Counted from the first letter of the stretch, positions 7,471 to 46,300 are shown. The stretch: 64,000 nucleotides of DNA from Ascidiella aspersa (GCA_963924565.1 OZ004611.1:19964001-20028000), one strand, 5' to 3'. Notes: generated by a model from the sequence alone, not told the origin. Program-made: numbers and translations.

Positions 7471-7987
7471 GTTTTACTCAACTCGCGTTCAACTATGAGT
7501 ACGTACCACTGCTTTAAATGGTTTTAACTCACACTAATAGAGAAAGTATCGTTTTCCCTGTATAATACAGGCCGATATAGTTCTCCAGAAAACTGTCAAC
7601 AAAGTTTATTCTGATTTTAGCAAGGGTGGTTAATACCTACCTCCTAAGTAACGGGGGAATATAGAATGCATTATTTAGGACAACAACTGGCTTTTTTCGG
7701 TAATTTTTTTGTTATTGAAGATTTTTGACATCATATTTCAATAAATACACAACTCTTAAATAACCGGCCGTCGAGTCAGGATTGCTTTTAAAGGGTGCAA
7801 TTAAAGGCTTTTTTGTGCATATCCATGAATTAAAAATATATATTTGATACCAAACACACACGAACCCTTCATACCAACGACGCTGTCCGCCGCCGTTTTG
7901 CCATTGGAAGTTTTGCTCTTGGTATCATTACTTTGTATTAGGCTACTGGTTACAACCAACAGAAAAATAAATCTTTTCTATTTAAAG

Positions 7988-9111
7988 CAGGGGCGGGCAA
8001 CATACGGCCCGCGGGCCAGACCCGGCCCACGACGAGATTTTGAGCGGCCCGCAGACAGTTTCTAGTGTTACATGATAATGTGGCCCACGGCCACATTCTG
8101 CCAAAATCCCCCACTACTTGCTTAGCCTACTACGTCAATTTATAGCGATTGTTTTTAATTTGTGTTTTTTCTTTGTTTTGGGTTGATTAAAAGAAATATT
8201 TTCCCATCGATTTGCCCAGAAACGTAAGTTTAAGGAGTGTCGCGAATTTAACAAGGATTGAATGCCCAAGTACTTTTTCACTCAAATCGGCAATAATCAG
8301 TATTTTCTTTAGAATAACAAAATCCGAATGGTGAAAAACAAATGATTCCGGTTGCACATTAATGAAAATAAAGAATGTTTGGATGTTAAGGGATAAATAT
8401 AATTCGCTAATAAAAGCATCATCAGTAGGGCGATTATTTTTTGACCTAAAAATATATTTTTTTGACAAAATTTTGACCTATTATAAATATATTGATTACC
8501 GCATATAAAACAACAGCATTAGTGTGTCTTGGTGTCGTCAACAACACGATTTTCATATTTTACTGACTATCGGTCGAACACAAATCACCTATTTTTTCGG
8601 GTTTATAAAAAATTATTGAAATCCTTAGTTGATATTTTTGTCATTTCAAAAAGTCAAACAACTATAAATTGCTGAAGGAAACAAAGTCAAGAGAAAAAAG
8701 ACAGCAAATACTGTTCAATACATTTGTCCAAATCAGAAATAAACAACTGTATAATGCAAAAACGAAGCTGAGCCTAATGCAATAAAGTTGGACAGGGTGG
8801 TTAATATTTGAAGCTCGCGTATATATAACACAGTTAAAAAGTGTTTTGACTTGAAATAATTTTGACTAAATTTTTTTTTCCCTAACGTGTAATTATTTAT
8901 CTCATAACATCTAAACAAACCGATTTTCGGTTTATAAAGTTGTACTTAGTTTATTCTTTAAGTCGGCAAAAAAATGTTGCCGTGTTTAACGAGTACAACG
9001 TTAGTCGCTATTATGCGACAAAACATGCAAGCTTTGGCAGTACTTAATCCGGCCCGCCAAGTACTTCATTTGGCCATATCTGGCCCGCCGACCGGAGAAA
9101 TTGCCCGCCTG
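7988..9111. mobile_element. Non-autonomous hAT element (Buster/SPIN/Charlie-like)
   Basis: TIRs caggggcgggcaa / ttgcccgcctg; TSD ATTTAAAG on both sides. Internal remnant near 8979-9029 translates AVFNEYNVSRYYATKHA, resembling the KEYNLRRHYETKH motif of SPIN/GTF2IRD2-type transposases. Confidence 0.85.
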
Positions 9112-10046
9112 ATTTAAAGTATCGCATTTAAAATAGAAGGCCTAAATATTTTTTACGGTGGGCATAACTAATTTTTAAATAGTTGACAGTATTGTGGTTT
9201 TACATTTTTTAAATTACGCTCAACTTTGGTGTAACAGCAATGAAAGGTAAAGCTTTTGTTGGTAAATGACGATGTGTTGCTGGTAGTTAGCGAATGGCAA
9301 TTCACTTGAGAATAGATGCCGGTACGTGTGCACGAGGCAAGTATTCGCAGTGGCGTGTCTGAAACAAGGCAATTTGCCGATTACCTGCAGCTGTGGAATG
9401 CGTAGCAAGATGCTCGCAGTCTACAGTTAATCACTCAACAGTCAACACAAGACAAGTTTTGTTTTTATAACCACTCCAACGAATAGCCAGTATTTAACGT
9501 AGTTATGTAATGAGTGTGTTAAACGGAAAGTTCTTTAACAAAAAAAAAGTCTACAAAAGCATTCAGATTCCCGACATTCATCGCCTACGCAAGATTTCGA
9601 TCTACGAAGTAAAATACCAAGGTTTGTACTTTATCGACTGTAGTTAAATGAAATTTGCCTTTCACTGAGAAAAACTGCAATTTCTTGAAATGCCAAACTT
9701 TGACAAGTCCAAAGTAAGAGAATTACAGGTGAACCGGGTAAAAGCATTTTAGTTGGTGATAATAATCGCGTGCATATGCACATTGAAGCAAGTTATGAAC
9801 AGAGCCTACTATAAAATTTAAACATTAAGGGTGTTTTTCGCAAGCGAGAAAAAAACTCATGACTAACGCGACTAACGCGTAGGTACATTACGTTATATTA
9901 TATCGTCACAATGCACAGATTTTAGATTCAATTCGGACTGCAAGAACAAATATTTTGCAACATCATTTATACCCCAAACATTTTTAACACTGCTTCGATT
10001 TTCCACATTTAATTACAGATTTAAAAGCCTGTTTTGTAATATAGGG

Positions 10047-11697
10047 CAGTGCTTCTTAAACTTTTTTAGTTTCGTTCACCCTTAGCATCTATTTCCAGAA
10101 TTCATTCACCCTTGTCTCATGATATGATAAAATGATTAAACTATCTCGTCTATATATAACAGCACAAAATGACTTAGATTGTTTTGATTTTTGTTAAGAT
10201 CAACTCCAGCTAAGTTTTACAATTGCAAATCTACAATTTCTCGAGTCCAGAAATATAAAGCAACAAAAGCACAAAACAAAGTCACCAAATTGTTGTACCT
10301 ATACTAGGGATACCATATTTTTAGCACCCAAAAATAGGACATATTTTTGCCTGCAAGTAAAACGAAAATAGAATTGTTACGTTTGAGAAATACGTGCCAT
10401 ATCCACAAAATTTTTCAGCAGCGACTGAAAAATTTTGACTGAAAAACAGCAGCGACTGAAGCAGCGACACCCTTTGTAATTTTCCTATGACTTGCATCCC
10501 TACGAAAAGCAATTCGAAATTTTTATTTAAATTTCACTGAGGCAACTTGAAAATAGTGAAATTTGTTGTCGGTTCGATTTAATTGGTTGAATTGGCGCTA
10601 CACTGTAAATCCGGAGGATTTTGCAAAACATTTCGTCCCCCTGTTGCTAGCCTGGTATCCAATTATATAAAATATGAATAAAAAATAGTTCAAACAGTGG
10701 ATGACTTTTATCGTTTATCTATAAGTTAGAAAAATTATAATTAAATAGGGCCGTTATAGCATCGATGATATGAAAACATGAAATGGCACTCAAAGAGACT
10801 TTGTGCTCAACAAAGTAATAACAGAAAATTCACAAATTTTTTTTGGTAGTTTTTATGTTAAAGTTGGCAAAAACAGAGTTTGTTCAGCGCTGTAGAAGTG
10901 GTGTACAACCAAAACGAAAACGATACCATTAGAATCATAGCAAGAAGTTTGGCGCTCTTTCACTATTGTACGTAATAAAAAAAAAAACTTTCTTGAAATG
11001 CCGCATACCACAACGCATATTGTTTGGGTTAGGGTGCGGGTTAGCGTTTGGTTGAGGGTGGGTCTTGTTATTATTAATAATAAGCATAATATTACTTTAC
11101 CCACCTCACCCAAACGCTAACCCGCACCCTAACCCAAACAATACTCGTTGTGGTATGCGGTATTGTTTTGTTTTGTTTTTTGCATAACTTTTCACGTACA
11201 TAAGTGAAAGAGCGCCCGAAATTTAAATATTAACTTTTTCAGAGCCCGCCTCCCCTCTTACGAATTGTTTGAAGCCCCCCTAGAAACCCTTTTTAAACCA
11301 GCAATTCAGCATCTTTCGTGGCTTAAGTATTTTTTGGAAATAAATACAACCTGTCGCCTAAAAGTTTTATTAGAAGTATAAGCAACTAACTCGAAATGCG
11401 AAAAAAGAGGACATTTGGACATTTCAGTTTTCGAAAAGGGGATAAATCCTCCTTAAAGAGGACATTTGGTAGGCCTAACTTATACACTCAGTGCAAACCA
11501 ACTTAAATATTACAATAAGCAAAAAAACACCAAAAAACAACAGTTCAGTAGTCGATTTACTTCAGAAAGTTGTTTACTAGTGACTATAGGATGCTCCTGA
11601 ACTTTCGTACACCGTTATTCACCCCTTTTGGTTGGTTCACCCCTGCAAAAATTTTATTCACCCTGGGGTGAACCATTCACCACTTTAAGAAACACTG
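10047..11697. mobile_element. Non-autonomous hAT element (1.65 kb) with ttcaccc subterminal repeats
   Basis: TIRs cagtgcttcttaaa / tttaagaaacactg; TSD ATATAGGG at 10039-10046 and 11698-11705. A related 3' end lies at about 25390-25541. Confidence 0.85.
10951..11216. mobile_element. Palindromic (foldback) MITE with ggttag-type repeats, nested in the hAT element
   Basis: Long inverted arms ggcgctctttcact...gggttagggtgcgggttagcgtttg / caaacgctaacccgcaccctaaccc...agtgaaagagcgcc. Confidence 0.8.
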
Positions 11698-11729
11698 ATA
11701 TAGGGAACTTAGAACGCTTTCCCCTATGT

Positions 11730-12096
11730 CAGGGGCGGGCAATTTCTCCGGTTGGCGGGCATGATATGGGAAAATGAAGTACTTGGCGGGCCGGATCGCA
11801 TAATGGCGGCCAATCTTGTACTCGTTAAGCATGGCCACACTTTCATTGCACATTAAACGTACTGATTACTTCCCGACTTGAAGAATAAACTAAGTGTAGT
11901 ACTTAGTAAACCGAAAATCAATTTGTTTGGAATTTGAGGTTATAAGATAACAATATTTCGCTGCTATGAAAGCATGAAGCATAATGATTTTATTAGCGAA
12001 ATGTGGCAAAATGTGGCCGCGGACCACAATATCATTTAAGGCCTGAAAATGTCTGCTGGAAATCCTGTCCCGCAGGCCGTTTGTTGCCCGCCCCTG
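11730..12096. mobile_element. hAT MITE of the same family as 7988-9111, opposite orientation; duplicated at about 13821-14214
   Basis: TIRs caggggcgggcaa / ttgcccgcccctg; TSD CCCTATGT at 11722-11729 and 12097-12104. Confidence 0.9.
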
Positions 12097-12936
12097 CCCT
12101 ATGTAGTAGCAGATTTATCTTTCAGTGTCATTTATGGAAGGAGGTTGTGTTTCGAAATTAAGAGCAATTTTTGCCCATTTTCTTTAACAAAAAAGCTCTG
12201 TTAGCAGTGACCTGGTATTTAAATTTTGACCGTGAACCGTCAACATAAAATTTTGGCTAGAATCCTCCATATTTACACTATGATCATAAATCTGCAACAC
12301 ACTATCAAAGACAACTTGTTACAATTACAACCTACTGTTTTAATCGGATAACCAAACAAAAAAGATGTAGCCTACATGTTTTTATGCTTAGGCTACGACT
12401 ACGTCTAATCCTAACTTTATATAGTCATAGGTTAGTTTTCAAATTTAGCACAGAATGTAAGGCAACAAATGTTTTTCTTATTTACGCAAAACAGCAGTTT
12501 TATAAGTTTTTTCAATTCATTTTCGAGATTAAGTATTTTAGTACACCTGGAAAATACACCACTAACCGGATGTCATATGAGTGTATAATCGCATGACATA
12601 AGAAATTAAAAGCTCCAAACGAAAATATTTGCGCGTACCACAGAAAAATGCATCAGAGATGAGGTAAATGTCCTAAACTTTCGATTAGAAACACAAGTCT
12701 TAAATGCTTTAAATCAATTTGGAAGGAATATTCACGTAAACAAAGGGTAAGCTTTTTACCAATAAAACCGATTCGACAAAACGCTAGTATGACGTGTACT
12801 GTATCTCCGATTCTTGGAAGGAGTTTTTATTTTGAAGGATAATTTTGGTGAAAGTTATATACAACAACTCGTATATTTGCGGCGACGCGCGCAGCATAGC
12901 CTGAATTTATATACCTCGTTTTCACCGTGATATGTT

Positions 12937-13062
12937 GGCGCTGGCTTAGTCGCGTGGTTACTTCGACTTTACATGGTTAACACGAATGCGATCAAGCGCT
13001 TGTGCGCGGGTTCGATTCCCGCACGCTCCCACACCACTGACGCTGTCCGGTGCCTTTTGCCA
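12937..13062 (+). mobile_element. tRNA-derived SINE
   Basis: A-box-like and B-box (GGTTCGATTCC) motifs; homologous to 7343-7470. Confidence 0.7.
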
Positions 13063-15091
13063 CTTAAACTTTTGTTAAATAAATGATAATATTGTTATTT
13101 TTTTGTTCACGTCGGGATCTAAGCCTGCTCCGACATTTCTAGGGTGGGTCTTGTTATTATTAATAATAAGCATAATATTACTTTACCCACCCTCACCCAA
13201 ACGCCAACCCGCACCCTAACCCAAACAATCGTTGTGGTATGCGGTATTGTTTTGTTTTGTTTTTTGCATAACTTTTCACGTACATAAGTGAAAGAGCGCC
13301 AGAAATTTAAATATTAACTTTTTCAGAGCTCGCCTCCCCTCTTACGAATTGTTTGAAGCCCCCCTAGAAACCCTTTTTAAACCAGCAATTCAGCATCTTT
13401 CGTGGCTTAAGTATTTTTCGGAAATAAATACAACCTCTCGCCTAAAAGTTTGATTAGAAGTATAAGCAACTAACTCGAAATGCGAAAAAAGAGGACATTT
13501 GGAGATTTTTGAGCGTCCTCGGAGGACCATTCAGTTTTCGAAAAGGGGATAAATCCTCCTTAAAGAGGACATATGGTAGGCCTAACTTATACACTCAGTG
13601 CAAACCAACTTAACTATTACAATAAGCAAACAAACACCAAAAAACAACAGTTCAGTAGTCGATTTACTTCAGAAAGTTGTTTACTATAGTGACTATAGGA
13701 TGCTCCTGAACTTTCGTACACCGTTATTCACCCCTGCAAAAATTTTATTCACCCTGGGGTTAACCATTCACCACTTTAAGAAACACTGATATAGGGAACT
13801 TAGAACGCTTTTCCCTATGTCAGGGGCGGGCAATTTCTCCGGTTGGCGGGCATGATATGGGAAAATGAAGTACTTGGCGGGCCGGATGAAGTACTGCCAA
13901 ATCTCGCATGTTTTGTCGCATAATGGCGGCCAATGTTGTACTCGTTAAACATGGCCACACTTTCATTGCACATTAAACGTACTGATTACTTCCCGACTTG
14001 AAGAATAAACTAAGTGTAGTACTTAGTAAACCGAAAATCAATTTGTTTGGAATTTGAGGTTATAAGATAACAATATTTCGCTACTAAAAGTATAAAGCAT
14101 AATGATTTTATTAGCGAAATGTGGCAGAATGTGGCCGCGGACCACAATATCATTTAAGGCCGGAAAATGTCTGCTGAAAATCCTGTCCCGCAGGCCGTAT
14201 GTTGCCCGCCCCTGCCGTATGTAGTAGCAGATTTATCTTTCAGTGTCATTTATGGAAGGAGGTTGTGTTTCGAAATCAAGAGCAATTTTTGCCCATTTTC
14301 TTTAACAAAAAAGCTCTGTTAGCAGTGACCTGGTATTTAAATTTTGACCGTGAACCGTCAACATAAAATTTTGGCTAGAATCCTCCATATTTACACTTTG
14401 ATCATAAATCTGCAACACACTATCAAAGATAACTTGTTACAATTACAACCTACTGTTTTAATCCGATAACCAAACAAAAAATATGTAGCCTACATGTTTT
14501 TATGCTTAGGCTACGACTACGTCTAATCCTAACTTTATATAGTGTACATATATTCCTAAAAAAAGCTAGTGACAAGTAGTCACAGGTTAGTTTTCAAATT
14601 TAGCACAGCATGTAAGGGAACAAATGTTTTTCGTATTTACGCAAAACAGCAGTTTTATAAGTTTTTTCAATTCATTTTCGAGATTAAGTATTTTAGTACA
14701 CCTGGAAAATACACCACTAACCGGATGTCATATGAGTGTATAATCGCAAGACATAAGAAATTAAAAGCTCCAAACGAAAATATTTGCGCGTACCACAGAA
14801 AAATGCATCAGAGATGAGGTAAATGTCCTAAACTTTCGATTAGAAACACAAGTCTTAAATGCTTTAAATCAATTTGGAAGGAATATTCACGTAAACAAAG
14901 GGTAAGCTTTTTACCAATAAAAGCGATTCGACAAAACGCTAGTATGACGTGTACTGTATCTCCGATTCTTGGAAGGAGTTTTTATTTTGAAGGATAATTT
15001 TGGTGAAAGTTATATACAACAACTCATATATTTGCGGCGACGCGCGCAGCATAGCCTGAATTTATATACCTCGTTTTCACCGTGGCATGTT

Positions 15092-37300: not shown

Positions 37301-40300
37301 TAAATCTATTAGGAGCCAAGGTTGCTAAGGCTTTCTGAGGACCAAAATAGTATACAATCCTATCCGGTAACTTCTTGAGGCATTATTCCGAAGCGTGTTG
37401 TAAACTCGGGACTGTGCTGACATGATTATCTCAAACCGCATGTGGTGTAACCCCGGATGTATTTGCCATTATTATTGTGCTTTGCTGTACACCAGGGGTA
37501 TCCAAACCGCTCTCGCGAGCCACATGCGGCTGATTGCAGTTTGCTAAAATCTAATTTATACTTGATTTTTATTCCACATTTTTTCGTACAAGACTTTTTT
37601 TATGGCGTCACGTTTGTACCACGCACTCCTCAAACAAAATTACCCACCATTGCTCAGATTATATTTCTTTTTCTAGAATAAAGTTAGATTTTAGAAACTT
37701 TCAGAGCATGACTTCATTTGTTCGAGAATAGTGTGCGACATCTCTCACAAATCTAGCTGAGCAAAGGTAAGTGTGCAATTATGGAAGAAACAGAGTGGTT
37801 TTATTTTTGCCCAATTTAAGGAGTGGTGCATTGCGGTTACCCAAGCAAGAACAGTGGCTATTGGTCTCTGACTGGTTGGCTTCCTTGTTATATGGGAATG
37901 ACTTACACACTAGGAAATAGTTTGATATGTTTGATTTATTTTATAAGACGATTTTAATATTACAAACATAAATAATAAGTATACCTGACTGTCCAATCCT
38001 AGGGTGAGCAGCATGAAGAAGAAAAGTATAGACCACAGCTGGGGAACTGGCAGAAGTGAGACAGCCTCCGGGTACACGATAAAGGCTAAGCCAGGGCCTA
38101 AGCAACAAAACGTCGTGTTTATTAATATGATACAAAGTTTCTAAAACTAACATAAAACATTAAACACAGCAGTATGAAAGTAAGGTAGAACTCACTAGTA
38201 AGGACCTAAGTATACGTAAATATATGCTATGCGTATCATATGGTATTATTCCGTTAGATAATAATTTTTAGATAAATGCAGGTGCTAGTTTTTGTAATTG
38301 CAGGTAAAATTTCGTGTTATCGTTTAAATGTGTTGAAAAAACAAAACAATCAGCATTCCATACATACATTTTGCTAAGAAATGACCTATTAAACAATGAT
38401 AATAATTTATATAGTGGTACCTAATCCATAAAACGTACCCTGTGCTGCCACGTCCTGCACTTGAATGCCAAGCTTGAATGCCATGTGACCAATCACGGAG
38501 AATATGACAAACCCGGCGAATATGCTGGTGGCACAGTTGCCAATAGCGACGATCAGCGTATCTCTAAAAAGCAAAAACGAGTTTACGCGAACTACGTTGA
38601 GCGTCTGCCGTTTGATTAGATTTCAACAAAGCCTATATTATACAAAAAGCTACAATAGATGTTTAGAGCGTCTACCATGTTAGACCCAATTCTATCGCCG
38701 CACTATAAATTCACGCTTGTACGTGGTCCTGAAGGTTGTGTAATTGTCATAGGCCTCAATGTTTAAAGAGAATCATTAACCCTTAACCAGGAAATAAGGA
38801 CTGTCAAGGATGAATCTATTAACCACATCGCGCCAGTTAAGCCACCATCGTACAGTATCATATTTTTTCATGCGAATTACCTGACAATAAGGATTTTCAC
38901 TAGTTCACTTTTTATCACCTGTAAATGTTGTTGTTGAACTTGTTGTATGACGCGAAAGTGAGCAAACCCCCGAAAGAAATTCCCAAAGAGTAGAAGATCT
39001 GTGTGGCAGCGTCTTTCCAAACCTTAATGGGTAACAACATTGTAAAAAAACATAGATCGAGATTTACTATTGATTAAAGCCATGCGTCCTTATTTTACCT
39101 TAGCGGTTTGAAGCTTGTACCATTTGGGCCTCACGTAGAACTTAATTCCGTCGAGTGCGCCCTCCAGTGTACAGCCTCGGACTAGCAGAATGATGAGAAT
39201 GATGTAGGGGAAGGTGGCGGTGAAATAGACCACCTATAAACAACAGGAAAATTAGTATTGGAATAAAAATAAGAGGTGTAAGCAGTTTACGTTTGTTGTA
39301 TACATACCATAACACTATTTATTTGGCCAGCTCTATTGAATCGATTGACGTCAGATAACCTTAAACTCAGTTCCGTAACGGAATTCTTACCGAGCAGACG
39401 CTTTCTAAGAAAAATGATATGTCACTAACATTTATACTTTTTGCCCCAGGCGCCAATGTAAGTTTATCAATGAGAACTGAAGAATTTGGTAAAGGTCGCA
39501 TGCGGAGCTCATTGGAAATTCCAAAATGACGAATGATTTATTAAAGCTATCGTTAGAAATAGCCAATACTTGTGAAAATTATGGTTAAAACATACAGTTC
39601 TACGTAGGTTATTTTCAGATCTGTTATTAGAGTTAAACCATTTGGTTAATATTATCTTCTTACGGAAATTGTTCAGTCGTATAACTCCCTGTGATATTTC
39701 ATCCTAGGTTTTATATTTAATTTGTGTCTGTGTAAACGTCATGTGCTGTGACCTCTTGAAGAAACAAAACAATAAACGCAACAACAAAGATATAAAAACA
39801 TGCAGTGCAAATCAGCATGAATTAAATTTTACGAATTTATTATTTTTTGTAGAAAAATTATGTCACCAAAACATTCTTAAAAAGATTTACCATAATCCCT
39901 TTTGTTTAAAAAAGAGGTGTGAGATTCTTCGTAAACTAAAAAAATAAATTAAACCACTAAACAAAGTAATGCCGACCTTTCCGGACGATTGCACTCCTTT
40001 GATGAGACAGAAAAACACCAGCAGCCAAGCGAGTAACAGGCATAACACCAAATCCCACAGCACTTCGCCAGGGTCTTCAATGCCGGTGCTCTTGTTCAGC
40101 CTGAGCACACGATTTCTGCCAAAAATGGGGATGTTAGGAAAAGATTCGTGGAATAGATATCGCCTTGGTCAGTACAATTTTGTTTTGGAAGGCCAATTTA
40201 CCACAATAGGTGGAAATAGTTTTTACCAGGACGAAAAATGTATATCAAATCACACGAACTTGGTTTGTGAACTGCAGTAAGTAGTTTAGATTTAACAGAT

Positions 40301-43300
40301 TTCTGTAGTTTTATATTTGTAAAAACATACGCTTATGAAAAACGACTTATTAAATTGCCTATCCTATAGCAATATGTAAAGTATAGCCGCCATGATTTAT
40401 AATTAAATACCCAGTCAGAAATTTTAATGCGGGCCTTACTCGAACTATCATCGGTGTTAGTATGGCCCATTACCAGATTACCACAGAAACCCCATAGATA
40501 TATCCCAGCTGGGAGACCGGAAAGGTAACATCGGCCCATGTTAGATTTTCTTTGATTTCCCATACATGGCATCCCACATATGGTTCAAGCGTGAAACTAG
40601 CCTGGCCAAATATATTCCTGCTTTACACCAATTTTAAAATAGCAAGCAATCAATATTTATTGTCATTAAATTTCCGCGCACAGAAGCACAATAACAGCAC
40701 GTACAAAAATATCAAACGGTTATTCAAAAAAAAAAAAGTTAAAAACAATTGAAGAAAACGGCTTAAAAGAATAACTTAGGAATGATTAAATATAAACACA
40801 AATAGAAAAAAAGAATTATAAACATTGCTGTAATAAAAAAAACATGGATAGAACTTTTGACATCACACGAGTTACAAACCGCAAAATACTAAACAATTAA
40901 ATCATAAGTTATGGCCAATTCTTTCAGAGTTTTGACAGTTGATGGAAAGCTTAACCAAGAGGTTCGTAAACAATAAATGGCTAAATGTAACTGTTGACGG
41001 TATACTCATAAGTAAACACATATTAATGCAATTTATGCCTGAGTTTTGGTTTTCATATCCACTTGTAATTGTTTCTTGGTGGTTACAAACACAATATTGA
41101 GTGTTGAGTGAGGATATGGAACATCTGTAATAACATAATTAGTGTTAAAGTATGTGTATACATGTATATATACATATATATATTAAAATTATGTGCTAGT
41201 AAAACGTTTGAACTAACTATGTTTACAAAAGCAACAAACCAAATAAAGCCTTTTTCTTAATAAAAATAATTCATAAAACATGTAATTATAATTTAAAATT
41301 TATGTTAGTCACTTTATTTTAGAATAAATCCTTAACTTGGCAGTTTATTTTTGTTCTTTGATAGCATTCGTGTAATCTCTGCATCCCTGTGTGGATGTAG
41401 CCTGATTAACAAAATAGTGCTTGCAGGAATGCTTGTCTGTAGATGACATTTTGAAGTGGTGCCATTCAAATTCTAAACAAAAACAGTTAAATGGCCACAA
41501 TTTATATAAAATGATGTTGTAGTTGTACCCTCCAAATAATCACACAAAACACATATTTAACAATATAGCACTCGAGAAAGTATGGCAAGTGTACACACAA
41601 TTTTTTTAGTAGACCCAACCTGCACCCCAATTTGCCTATGATTCATAAGTGGGGTGAATTTTAATATGTTGTGCACTTGTGAGATCTCATCAAAACATGC
41701 CATACTTTCCAGAGTAGGTTATATTGAACCCAAAAATTCAATAAACACATTTAACACAATATATTATGTATGTAGAGACAATCATTTAAATCAAAATATT
41801 TATATAATGATATAAAACAACAAAACTTGGAATAATCCTCACAGTAACAAAAAAATAAACCATACCTTTTTGTACCTTTCATACTTTTTTCTGGCTTTCA
41901 ATTATAAAGAGTATTCCACTTTCTGAAAATAAATACATGAATACATGAAATATCTAAGGAATGTATATTTTTATATAGAAGTAAAATAATTGTTCTTGTG
42001 TAAACTGCTTCAATTATAACTTAAAACGAGGTCCTTGTAAGAATTATTTCTTCATTTTATAGGCATAGTAATAGTTTTTATGAACTTTCATTATGGATAC
42101 TTAGTATTTTTCTGTTAAAAAATCTTTAAAATCAAGTGGATTAACTCATAATTTAGCTAAAACTCATAAGATGAAACAATATAGTTTTAAGTGGTATTGG
42201 GATATTTTCTAGTTAAACATTTTAACAGACAAATTTAACATTAAAAAAAAGAAAAACAACAGACATTTTGACTTACCATATGGGGATTTGGTTTGAGATG
42301 GACTTTACATTTCTTCATCATTTTTTCTGTTCAAAGACAATGCAGCATCGAGCGTACAACCTTCCTTAGCTGCATAGTAAATTTCGTTGTCCACAAGCTA
42401 CAACTGCACTTAGTTCCATAACATTTTCACGATAAAACTTGCGCTGCTTCTTCAATGCATCCGTTTGGTAAAAGAAAACAGTTCACTTTTTTAAAAAGGT
42501 CGAACAACCCGCAACAATGGTTGTCATTGTGACGTAACGTTTCCCGCCAACAATTTTAAATTTGTTAACGGTGATTTTGAAAAGTGTTGCTGGTAATTTT
42601 AAATTTTATAACGACGAATTTTTTTTTAAGATTATAAAACATTTAAATAAATAAAAATGTTACACCTGGTAGTGGCCAAGAGCTTACACATAAATGTTAC
42701 GTTACGCTCGGTCGATTTTTATTTAAAAATCGATTTCCTGCCGGAGTCTCATTAAGAACAGTTTAGGTATCCAATATGTTTGGTATTATTAGTACAATGA
42801 CATTTTCACGCTTGATCCATAAAACACACATTGGTTATATCACATGTTTTCCAAAAAAAACTAGTTTATCCTCACCCTTTTGAGCTCATCGTAATTTGGT
42901 AAAACTTAGGAAGCTCAAAACATGGAACCCGTGATGAACAAGTAATATTAGATATTCAATTTCTTTAAAGTCATTGATGTGGGCTTAAAAAACATGCAGG
43001 AAATACCGTTGACCTATCTTCGATTTTTCCGCGGGTTATCATAGAATATCATAGAAACAGTTTACAAAAACCTCAGCAATTTTTCCACTTACAATAAAAA
43101 ACAACTTTTTTGTCGCTAAAAATCTTTCTACTTTGTTTAAAGTGAATTATTTGAGCTTAAAAACCATGCAAGAAATATCATGGGCTAATCTTCGATTTAC
43201 CCGTGGGCTATCATAGAATATCATAGATACAGCTCATAAAAATCTTAGCAATTTTTGAATTTACAACAAAAAACTAACGTTTATGTATCAAAACATGTAC

Positions 43301-46300
43301 TACACAACATCTTACACTAAATTTCGTTAAGATAAGTTATCTTAATTTATCTAAGATAGGACACTGCTAATTCGAACATGCCTAGTTTATCTAAGATAGG
43401 CCACTGCTAGTTCGAACATGCCTAGTAAGGCCCAGGGATAACTCCAAGATAATTTCTGACTGGGTAGGTCGTCTATAATCGGTAACAGCCATTTCCGTGG
43501 CAATGCTCTATTGGCAATATAACTTTTTACATGGTGCATGTTTAGAACAAATTTAATTGAGTTGTATTTTAACACACAAACTAACGCAACTGCAGTTACG
43601 CCAAATTTACTATCAAATTAACTTGAAAGTAAAAATCGAAGTCAAGCCCAAATCAGAGCTCCATATCAGGTGTCAGTCATTCTACGTTGTTGTTTGCAAC
43701 AAAGTTGAAAACAATCCAATTACAAACTCACGTCCAGTACTCCTCGCTCGGACTGATTCTTTTCGTTTGATTTGCCAGGGTCTGTACGGCGTCGACTGGC
43801 GTAAAGTTGCTTGCTGCTGTTGGATCCACAGTTGTCGTTATCGAGGTCGTTGTCACCGGGATCATAGTCGTGTTGTAAACTCCCGTGCAGTTCAGTCCCA
43901 CACAGGGTGACAAGGTTGCCTAAGCAAAATAAAACAGCGTTATCGTTTACCGACCGGTTTTCGGTAGCTTTTTCTTTTTATGATTCTATAATTTACAATT
44001 GAAGTGACTAACAATAAACGACGTCAAGTACGTTTACTTGGCTTGTTCACTTTGATTTAAACGACAAATTACAACGTAGTTGCTGTAACCAAAAAAAAAC
44101 GTTTAATAGATGACAAAGCAAAGTAGAATCAGGACCCACGAGTGTTGAGCTAATGAGAAGGTTTTTTACGCTCAAAACTGTTCAACATGTTTAATAACCA
44201 CATGTTTTGCATAATGTTTTTTGTTTGTTTGCGGTTTAACCCCACCGCTGCGTGTTTCGCGTTTCAAAATTTGATTTAAGCTTTTAATATTTTACTTCAA
44301 TTTTGTTGTGTGAGACACACAAGCCGACATCGCAAAAAGACTAGACATCTAATCTCGCATCAGATTGTCTGGTAATTGTTGCAATAACACCGCAATCCGT
44401 TGCTTGTTAAAGCTATTATCTTCACTTCCTTTCTGGCGAGAAGCGATTTGCCGTATCCATTTGTGAACAACTACCCAGCGATTTTCTTACACTTACGTTG
44501 TACTCTTCGCAAGTATACTGGTTCCAAGACTCGCCGCACTTTATGGTCCAGGGAAGCACGGATTGGAAGGACGCGAAAAGATAGAATAACGCCCAGGCAA
44601 TGATGACGTTGTAATAGACGATGACGAAAAACGACACCAGCATCATTCCCAATCCGATACCTGCAATCGCATATGCTTGGTGAAACGATAGCGGGTTCTT
44701 CTTTTAATTCAAAATTATATACTGTATAACAGATGTTTAGAAAGTCCAAAAATATATATTATATCAATTTAATTCTAAGGTTAAGAATATATTATCAACC
44801 AAAAATACGTCAAAAAGGTCGAGTTGATCGACATCATCTTGATTAAGACGTTTCGATACGAGCTTGTATTAACTGTTATTCAACCAAATTGAAATAGTTC
44901 TTAGTCACAATAACTGAAGATAATACAAGCGCGCATTGAAACGTATTAATCAAGATAATGTCGATCTGCTCGAACTTTTTGGCTTTGCAACTCCGTGCAT
45001 ATAGTGTACCCTAAAATATGCCAGTTCAGTATGACTCCCCATTTGTTTATTTTGTATTTGATGTTTCTAAAATTGGCAGCGCTTTCAGTTAACCAATACT
45101 AAGATTGTAATAGCTGATAGTTGAAGCCCTTAAATCCGGTGAAACTGTATATACTGGTTCTTCGGGTTGTGCCGAAACCTATAGACCTATAACCGTGGGA
45201 ATCAAGCTAATGACTCATTTCGTCTTTGAGTAAAACTGGTCTTTTCCGTGCGACTTCTTATTTGGTCGACTACAATTACAGACTACATCGACTGCATCGT
45301 GCTTGACGAACGGTTTGACCACATTCAACGGGCCGTAAAGCTCTTTTAGGTGGGCAAAGTCATTTCTGCTGGGCAAATTCAATTTTCGATGAGGAAGTAG
45401 CAGTAGAAGCAATAATCTGTGATTTGAGCGCTTTGAACGCTTACCTTTAAACATAGGGCTGGACCTCCAAGCCGTCATTGCACCATATCCAGAAAACTGG
45501 CCGAGGGATAGCTCGATAAAAAACAAGGGGATCCCGCAGAAAGTCAACATGATGAGATAGGGAATAAGAAAGGAGCCTATAAACGAAAACAAAATTGGTA
45601 TGACCGGATTGTTCCAACAAAAGTAGAGACATGCTAAGGGTGCCCCTAAAATAAATTAATGTTGAAAGAGCACTACAAAATACAGAGAAATTCTACGATA
45701 ATTGGCACCGCACTTAAAGATTATTTAAAGGCATTATTGATCTATGACCAGAAATCCGGCATTTCACATATGCCGCGGTAGATGTTATGCACGCTTTAAT
45801 ATCACTTTATACAGCAAGGTTAAACATTAACTGTTCTAGACCAAAGCGATCTGCTAATATTATAGGATTGCACACCATAGACACCATACAGAAGAAAAGT
45901 TAGCATTCGCAACGCAACCTACCTCCGCCATTGTCGTAGGCGAGGTACGGAAATCGCCAAACGTTCCCCAACCCGACACAATATCCGATGCAGGACAGTA
46001 AGAACTCGACCTTGTTGGCCCATTGCCCTCTCTCCTTGCGGTCTGCCGCCTCCTCCTTGTCCACATCCGAGGCTTCATTCTGTGGACATTCACATACATT
46101 TAAGATTACACTTGTTTTAAGCTGCCTTTGAATTTTGTCCAGAATGTTTTGAGTACGTGGTGCATGTGATACTATAGTATAGTCACTATAGTGCATCAAC
46201 CGGGGTGCCGCGGCGCCCTGGTGTGCATTTACTAATGCTTAAGGGCTCCGTTTAAATTTGAGAATTTTTACGAATATGATTTTTTGCTTCATTTGTAAGC

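What the first reader, a model, noticed from the sequence alone, without database searches (positions are those of the whole stretch)
40410..43464. Pack-type DNA transposon: a 3-kb TIR element with no transposase, apparently carrying host-gene pieces, inside an SLC6 intron
Seen: a perfect 14-bp TIR with TA flanks and shared subterminal motifs brackets about 85% of intron 40116-43731. Inside, on the minus strand, are a promoter-like patch (TGACGT and TTTCCCGCC at about 42530-42548), an ATG exon ending in GTAAGT, and further splice-site-bounded segments (41922-41866; acceptor near 41472). I found no transposase. Known: Pack-MULE and Pack-CACTA gene capture is well described in plants and less so in animals. 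Inference: this is a gene-capturing non-autonomous CMC/EnSpm-like element. Its splice sites are on the same strand as the host SLC6 gene and could make chimeric transcripts.
Basis: partly seen in the sequence, partly recalled or inferred. Interest (0 to 1): 0.7.

Follow-up and report, generated by a model that had tools for sequence, protein, structure and literature searches.

The report
Mobile EnSpm transposon with spliced RNA
A 3-kb piece of jumping DNA, found in about 20 copies and missing from this spot in other samples of the species, makes its own spliced RNA that likely codes for nothing; no host gene it could have captured was found, so it is likely an ordinary non-autonomous transposon.

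Summary
The element is real. A perfect 14-bp TIR (CCCAGTCAGAAATT) brackets 84.5% of an SLC6 intron. About 20 copies exist; 12 aligned are 96.7-98.5% identical to it. The target duplication is a variable 2-mer (14 of 16 copies; TA in only 3). An empty site with one TA is seen in two other data sets. Two EnSpm-type transposase families in the genome have near-identical ends and likely move it. The Pack reading fails: the ordinary copies share one interior, ~70%-identical old copies have it too, no exon matches a host gene, and no frame shows coding constraint. No splice into SLC6 was listed, but SLC6 is near-silent in the one RNA run. Verdict: a recently mobile non-autonomous CMC-EnSpm family with a self-promoted, likely non-coding four-exon transcript of unknown origin. 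Side finding: its left arm sits in a 6.27-kb head-to-tail unit with parvovirus-like genes, about 25 copies in one DNA run against 2 arm copies in the assembly.

The parts
40410..43464 (.). Non-autonomous CMC-EnSpm-type DNA transposon, 3055 bp
   Evidence: empty site
40408..40409 (.). Left copy of the 2-bp target-site duplication (TA)
   Evidence: one TA at the empty site
43465..43466 (.). Right copy of the target-site duplication (TA)
40410..40423 (+). Left TIR, 14 bp
43451..43464 (-). Right TIR, 14 bp
40431..40440 (+). Subterminal motif GGGCCTTACT, mirrored at 43424-43433; partly shared with both autonomous families
42960..43274 (+). Two 143-bp direct repeats (80% alike) in the right arm
   Evidence: D1
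43343..43422 (+). Two 40-bp tandem repeats (93%); their number varies among copies
   Evidence: D2
42530..42548 (-). Likely promoter core: CRE-like and E2F-like motifs (labels recalled), kept in the older copies L025 and L029. Sense RNA starts just downstream; weak opposite-strand RNA covers the right arm
42277..42490 (-). Exon 1 (5' end approximate: RNA depth 1 at 42492, 58 at 42433); donor GTAAGT
   Evidence: 248 junction reads
41866..41922 (-). Exon 2, 57 nt
   Evidence: 248 and 147 junction reads
41570..41715 (.). Small nested hairpin (MITE-like) in intron 2, with dispersed relatives elsewhere in the genome
   Evidence: (I14)
41336..41472 (-). Exon 3; its donor is GT in 5 of 13 aligned copies and TT in the other 8, this one included
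40700..41124 (-). Exon 4 (3' end approximate; AATAAA at 40661)
40116..43731 (-). Host SLC6 (Pfam SNF) intron that holds the element

Best explanation
This is a recently mobile, non-autonomous CMC-EnSpm DNA transposon, likely moved in trans by related transposase-coding elements, whose fixed interior is transcribed and spliced into a four-exon RNA that is likely non-coding and is likely a decayed leftover of an ancestral element's own gene rather than host cargo. Shown: paired TIRs, a variable 2-bp duplication, about 20 dispersed copies, an empty site, splicing, and transposase elements with the same ends. Inferred: (1) a transposase of the L039 family (closest arms) or the L066 family binds the TIR and subterminal motifs and cuts and pastes the element. 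(2) The promoter at about 42540 drives the RNA from the right arm towards the left arm, the same direction as the transposase and multi-exon accessory gene in L039. (3) The interior came from an autonomous lineage that is now lost or too diverged to align. My odds for its origin: element's own gene 50%, old host capture 30%, de novo 20%. (4) The RNA has no selected product, and the insertion is mostly spliced out with the SLC6 intron.
For: Left-end search 34 matches, interior search 46 matches. Of 16 copies tabulated, 14 have a 2-bp duplication, of seven kinds. Empty site: 2 reads in X15 and one X1 contig at depth 61, equal to its flank depth. L039 (5825 bp, GG duplication) shares the left 209 bp at 81% and 226 bp of the right arm at 69%. 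L066, L067 and L070 have CCCAGTCA ends with TA, AT and AC duplications. L066 has a 688-codon open frame with D, D, CxxC, HxxxH and E motifs; among its Atlas neighbours are clusters where 10% and 47% of members carry Transposase_21. RNA depth is 170-340 on the main exon bins, with GT-AG joints of 248 and 147 reads. At five window-private sites, 80 of 1241 RNA reads lack the other copies' allele, which fits expression of this copy or a close sibling. No coding signal: synonymous changes among young copies are 1-8 against 10-21 non-synonymous in the nine frames tested in exons 1, 3 and 4, with frameshifting indels in all three exons. Old copies keep the interior at 57-80% (L029 throughout; L031-L034 from intron 1 to exon 4).
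Against: No autonomous element with this interior was found. A profile of the interior hit nothing in L039, L040, L041 or the ten transposase loci L066-L075, and exon-versus-L039/L066 scores equalled shuffles. So 'own gene' rests on position and direction only. Two frames show a mild third-position excess against old copy L029 (exon 3: 7/7/14; exon 1: 7/15/22; 2 of 36 frame comparisons), a possible trace of past coding. Pfam gave no hit above its curated cut-off for either transposase. Strong expression of an element that is still moving is not what a silenced relic would show.
Confidence: 0.7

Rival explanations
1. Old Pack-TIR: an ancestral element captured the promoter and first exons of a host gene, or a whole small gene, before the subfamilies split. 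The parent has since been lost or has diverged beyond detection.
For: The interior has a promoter, exons and introns and does not align to either autonomous family. One host-intron locus, L035 (C5:27223549), shares about 175 bp with intron 2 and the exon-3 acceptor at 77-79%.
Against: L035 is closer to the young copies (77-79%) than the oldest element copies are (68-72%). It holds only half of the nested hairpin, and none of its exons match. That fits a remnant, although the tree is unrooted. No exon source was found. The own-genome search scores only its best candidates, so a weak parent could be missed.
Confidence: 0.2
2. The RNA is kept by selection on the element or the host: a transposon-encoded long non-coding RNA, or transcription that opens the element for transposition.
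For: High expression from several copy types. The promoter motifs are kept in old copies. Splice dinucleotides are kept at 4 of 6 sites in L029 and 5 of 6 in L034.
Against: Exons are no more conserved than introns among young copies (exons 1.4-4.4%, introns 2.5-3.2% divergence). Only 2 of 6 sites are canonical in L031-L033. The third donor is lost in 8 of 13 young copies. Rfam gave two weak matches far below their cut-offs.
Confidence: 0.1
3. The element acts as an internal promoter or exon donor for SLC6, giving chimeric or truncated transporter transcripts.
For: Same strand and an active promoter. RNA depth is 1.8 in the intron remainder 40148-40411, against 0 in bins 39356-39883, 43580-43843 and 44108-44635, which suggests slight read-through.
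Against: None of the 15 listed joints links the element to SLC6 (107 were not shown). The bin with the next SLC6 exon has depth 0.76, against roughly 15-20 expected for this copy if it gives 6% of the reads. Only about 6% of one run was read.
Confidence: 0.08

Closest known systems
CMC (CACTA/EnSpm-Mirage-Chapaev) non-autonomous elements of animals, e.g. CMC-NA and ENS1_Cis (PMC6004678, passages read)
   Same: Short TIR, 2-bp target duplication, no transposase, matching ends on transposase elements
   Different: Ends are CCC rather than the CAC given there (CCC ends in animal EnSpm families are recalled, not checked); 3 kb long with a spliced, highly expressed interior
Pack-TIRs of animals, including multicopy Ssk-FB4 (PMC8277862; abstract, passages and sections 10 and 14 read)
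   Same: TIR arms around non-transposase sequence; multicopy, polymorphic and transcribed
   Different: Pack-TIRs were defined by a parental copy at 90% identity or more, 80-120% of the length, not linked to the transposon (median capture 224 bp). No such parent exists here, and no coding product is evident.
Maize dSpm and other deletion derivatives of En/Spm (recalled; only a search listing was seen)
   Same: Non-autonomous element that keeps a promoter near one end and spliced exons; the partner families have a transposase plus a multi-exon accessory gene
   Different: dSpm interiors align with the autonomous element; this interior aligns with neither autonomous family found

Membership tests
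CMC-EnSpm DNA transposon (non-autonomous) | Short TIR beginning C(A/C)C(A/T)(A/G) (consensus recalled) | tested here: met
   CCCAG at both ends in 15 of 16 copies tabulated; one left end damaged. PMC12730594 gives CA..TG 'in most cases', so CC ends are the minority form.
CMC-EnSpm DNA transposon (non-autonomous) | Short target duplication without fixed sequence (2-5 bp for the CMCT group) | tested here: met
   2 bp in 14 of 16: TT 4, TA 3, AT 2, AC 2, TG, CA, GA
CMC-EnSpm DNA transposon (non-autonomous) | Partner with the same ends encoding a DDE transposase with C(2)C and H(3-4)H motifs | tested here: met
   L066 motifs, ends, Atlas neighbours; L039 frames. No Pfam hit above its cut-off.
CMC-EnSpm DNA transposon (non-autonomous) | Mobilisation by that transposase | not testable with these tools
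   Only indirect: dispersed copies with different duplications and an empty site
Pack-TIR / Pack-CACTA | Both arms of one TIR element around 100-5000 bp of internal sequence | tested here: met
Pack-TIR / Pack-CACTA | Parental host copy, 90% identical or more, not linked to the transposon | tested here: not met
   No such match; the best non-element match is about 175 bp at 77%
Pack-TIR / Pack-CACTA | Cargo recognisable as host gene sequence | tested here: not met
   No Pfam hit under E 0.1 for 10 interior frames; own-genome protein searches hit only element copies, 18 of 18 and 12 of 12 matches; the Atlas gave only unnamed short clusters
Pack-TIR / Pack-CACTA | Different cargo among copies with the same ends | tested here: not met
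   The copies with both ends share one interior, apart from deletions and nested insertions. The C3 unit with virus-like genes has only the left arm.
Pack-TIR / Pack-CACTA | Chimeric transcripts with the host gene (common, not defining) | tested here: inconclusive
   None listed, but SLC6 is near-silent in the one RNA run

The most novel reading that the evidence does not exclude
An animal EnSpm family has carried, through about 30% sequence divergence, a self-promoted four-exon non-coding gene, captured from a lost host gene or built by the element, that its mobile copies express strongly and that helps the element move or escape silencing: a transposon whose cargo is a functional long non-coding RNA.
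Probability: 0.12. Interest if true: 0.65.

Novelty: new member of a known kind. Interest (0 to 1): 0.3.

Why it matters
As it stands it is an ordinary but unusually complete case: a polymorphic animal EnSpm family, two candidate transposase partners and a confirmed spliced transcript in one genome, ready for a transposition assay. It also shows that gene-like anatomy between TIRs is not proof of gene capture. Each new insertion carries a working promoter with some read-through, so it could alter neighbouring genes. If the RNA proved functional, it would be a transposon that carries a non-coding RNA gene.

Tried and rejected
Fem-1/ankyrin resemblance of the exon-1 frame IYYAAKEG (recalled): no Pfam hit, 18 of 18 genome matches are element copies, and older copies read differently. 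An 84-89 aa ORF across exons 3-4 (84-89 aa in 11 of 13 copies) and a 46-aa ORF (12 of 13): both lie behind upstream ATGs, show no synonymous excess and are broken in old copies. An ancestral frame starting in exon 2 of old copies: no Pfam or Atlas support. L035 as parent gene: rejected as more likely a remnant. snoRNA or other RNA family inside: nothing near an Rfam cut-off. The C3 unit as a Pack element with viral cargo: no right arm in 58.6 kb around it, and the right arm is not amplified in X15. A genome-wide profile search with a DNA alignment was not possible; profiles were run only on fetched loci and the window. Three look-ups of earlier findings returned nothing. Papers: seven searches were answered; no listing showed this family, but the organism was not identified and Repbase/Dfam were not available, so absence from print is not established. 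No supplements were read.

Full report
Observation. The element spans 40410-43464 with a perfect 14-bp TIR and TA on both sides. It lies in intron 40116-43731 of a minus-strand SLC6 gene: 4 of 5 frames scanned hit Pfam SNF, and the flanking exons join in frame as EEYWT/NRVLRL. It fills 84.5% of that intron.

It is a multicopy family. The window lies on C5 of a 309-Mb genome; the organism was not identified. The left end gave 34 matches, the interior 46 and the right part 49 (lower bounds), about 20 of them near-full copies. From the 20 loci I tabulated 15 with both ends, plus the window. Left out were L012 (left arm only), L015 and L025 (no right end in the stretch), and L028/L030 (one interrupted copy over two loci). 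Fourteen of the 16 have a 2-bp duplication: TT 4, TA 3, AT 2, AC 2, TG, CA, GA. L017 and L022 do not match. Twelve aligned copies are 96.7-98.5% identical to the window, gaps excluded. Their interiors are the same apart from deletions and nested insertions. Older copies exist: L029 (65-80% by region) and four on C6 (57-77% from intron 1 to exon 4; exon 1 does not align).

It moved recently. Reads of run X15 (2) and a contig of X1 (depth 61, flanks 59) skip the element and leave one TA.

Partners. L039 (C8:1176905-1182729; a copy with an identical transposase frame lies at C8:1.05 Mb; relatives L040, L041) has the same left TIR and a GG duplication. Its arms are 81% and 69% alike to ours. It has a transposase in two open frames, likely split by an intron, followed by a multi-exon gene with a weak DUF4806 match (E 0.0012, below cut-off). 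A second family (L066 5197 bp, L067, L070) has CCCAGTCA ends and 2-bp duplications. L066 has a 688-codon frame with the C(2)C and H(3-4)H motifs that PMC12730594 gives for EnSpm and its relatives (passages read). Its Atlas neighbours are eukaryotic proteins of similar length, some clusters with Transposase_21. That either enzyme moves this element is inferred.

The interior is transcribed and spliced. In RNA run X16 (about 6% read), depth is 170, 75, 208, 338 and 236 in the exon bins. Joints are 42277-41922 (248 reads), 41866-41472 (147) and 41336-41124 (67). The CT..AC ends place the RNA on the minus strand. The third donor is GT in only 5 of 13 copies and TT in the window, so those 67 reads likely come from other copies. 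Most reads carry non-window alleles; at five window-private sites 80 of 1241 do not (6.4%), about one copy's share. Weak opposite-strand RNA (depth 5-7) covers the right arm, which suggests a two-way promoter. The roughly 870-nt product has no long frame; the longest is 84-89 aa behind upstream ATGs. Changes among young copies show no synonymous excess in nine frames, and exons 1, 3 and 4 carry frameshifting indels. Against old copies, 2 of 36 comparisons show a mild third-position excess.

No host source. Promoter+exon 1 gave 23 matches, all element copies. Exon 4 gave 29: 27 element copies and two 53-bp matches on C1 that I could not assign. Protein searches with an exon-1 and an exon-3 frame returned only element copies. 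The other non-element matches are relatives of a small hairpin nested in intron 2 and one 175-bp stretch in a host intron (L035). L035 is closer to the young copies than the oldest element copies are and shares no exon. The Pack-TIR criterion of PMC8277862 (parent at 90% identity or more, unlinked to the transposon; section 14 read) is not met. The interior also fails to align with either autonomous family, so its origin is open. Position and direction match the transcription unit of L039, which is why I favour a leftover of an ancestral element's own gene.

SLC6. No listed joint links element and host (15 shown, 107 not shown). The host gene is near-silent here: bins covering its exons at 44.5-46.2 kb have depth 0 (0.76 at 43844-44107) and the bin with the next exon 0.76. 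Thirty-one reads at 38513 run on into a different sequence that I read as a paralog. Depth 1.8 between the left TIR and the acceptor suggests slight read-through. Chimerism is at most minor in this sample and untested elsewhere.

Side finding (described only). On C3 the first 831 bp of the element, without a right arm, occur twice 6270 bp apart beside open frames like parvovirus Rep and capsid genes (Pfam PF08398, E 1.6e-11; the parvovirus label is partly recalled). A 4-bp deletion found in these two arms and in none of 12 ordinary copies is in 107 of 188 X15 reads. Depth across the unit is about 105-140 against 3-6 on single-copy flanks, and 88 reads join its end to its start. That is about 25 head-to-tail copies, as an array or as circles. 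RNA depth over the virus-like genes is 0. The Rep-like frame has 58 matches genome-wide, on five contigs, so the arm is more likely a passenger in a virus-like repeat than the vehicle.

Verdict. Interest 0.3.

Noticed in passing
G000:C3:10794920-10804695 (L012, L060:3721-9981): 6.27-kb head-to-tail unit with the element's left arm and parvovirus-like Rep and capsid frames; about 25 copies in DNA run X15 against 2 arm copies in the assembly; no RNA over the virus-like genes. Array or circle is unresolved.
   Followed up: partly
G000 contigs C1, C3, C5, C7, C8: 58 matches to the Rep-like frame, in clusters: a large family of endogenous parvovirus-like sequences.
   Followed up: no
L066:2398-7594 (C2:27897397-27902593), L067, L070: Second EnSpm family with CCCAGTCA ends; L066 has an open 688-codon transposase and a multi-exon accessory gene.
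   Followed up: partly
L023:269-2803 (C4:21624068-21626602): Copy whose right arm is reduced to the 14-bp TIR yet has a matching TT duplication; either a deletion after insertion or subterminal repeats are dispensable.
   Followed up: no
L035:4550-4724 (C5:27223549): 175-bp piece of intron 2 with the exon-3 acceptor, 50 bp behind a proline-rich host exon; could act as a cryptic acceptor.
   Followed up: partly
window 44811-44990: High-copy hairpin repeat (64-nt arms, I1; X15 depth above 1100) in another SLC6 intron; the assembly differs here from several X1 contigs.
   Followed up: no
G000:C2:689551, C3:105444, C3:39.08-39.20 Mb, C4:10384, C5:109316: Pieces of the right arm (72-80% over 150-260 bp) recur near contig ends, probably in a subtelomeric repeat.
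   Followed up: no
L018, L026, L030, L040: Copies interrupted by other mobile elements: retrotransposon-like frames and a DDE_Tnp_4 transposase.
   Followed up: no
window 7987-14215: Long inverted repeats account for many perfect 16-nt pairs in the window; probably another TIR element.
   Followed up: no
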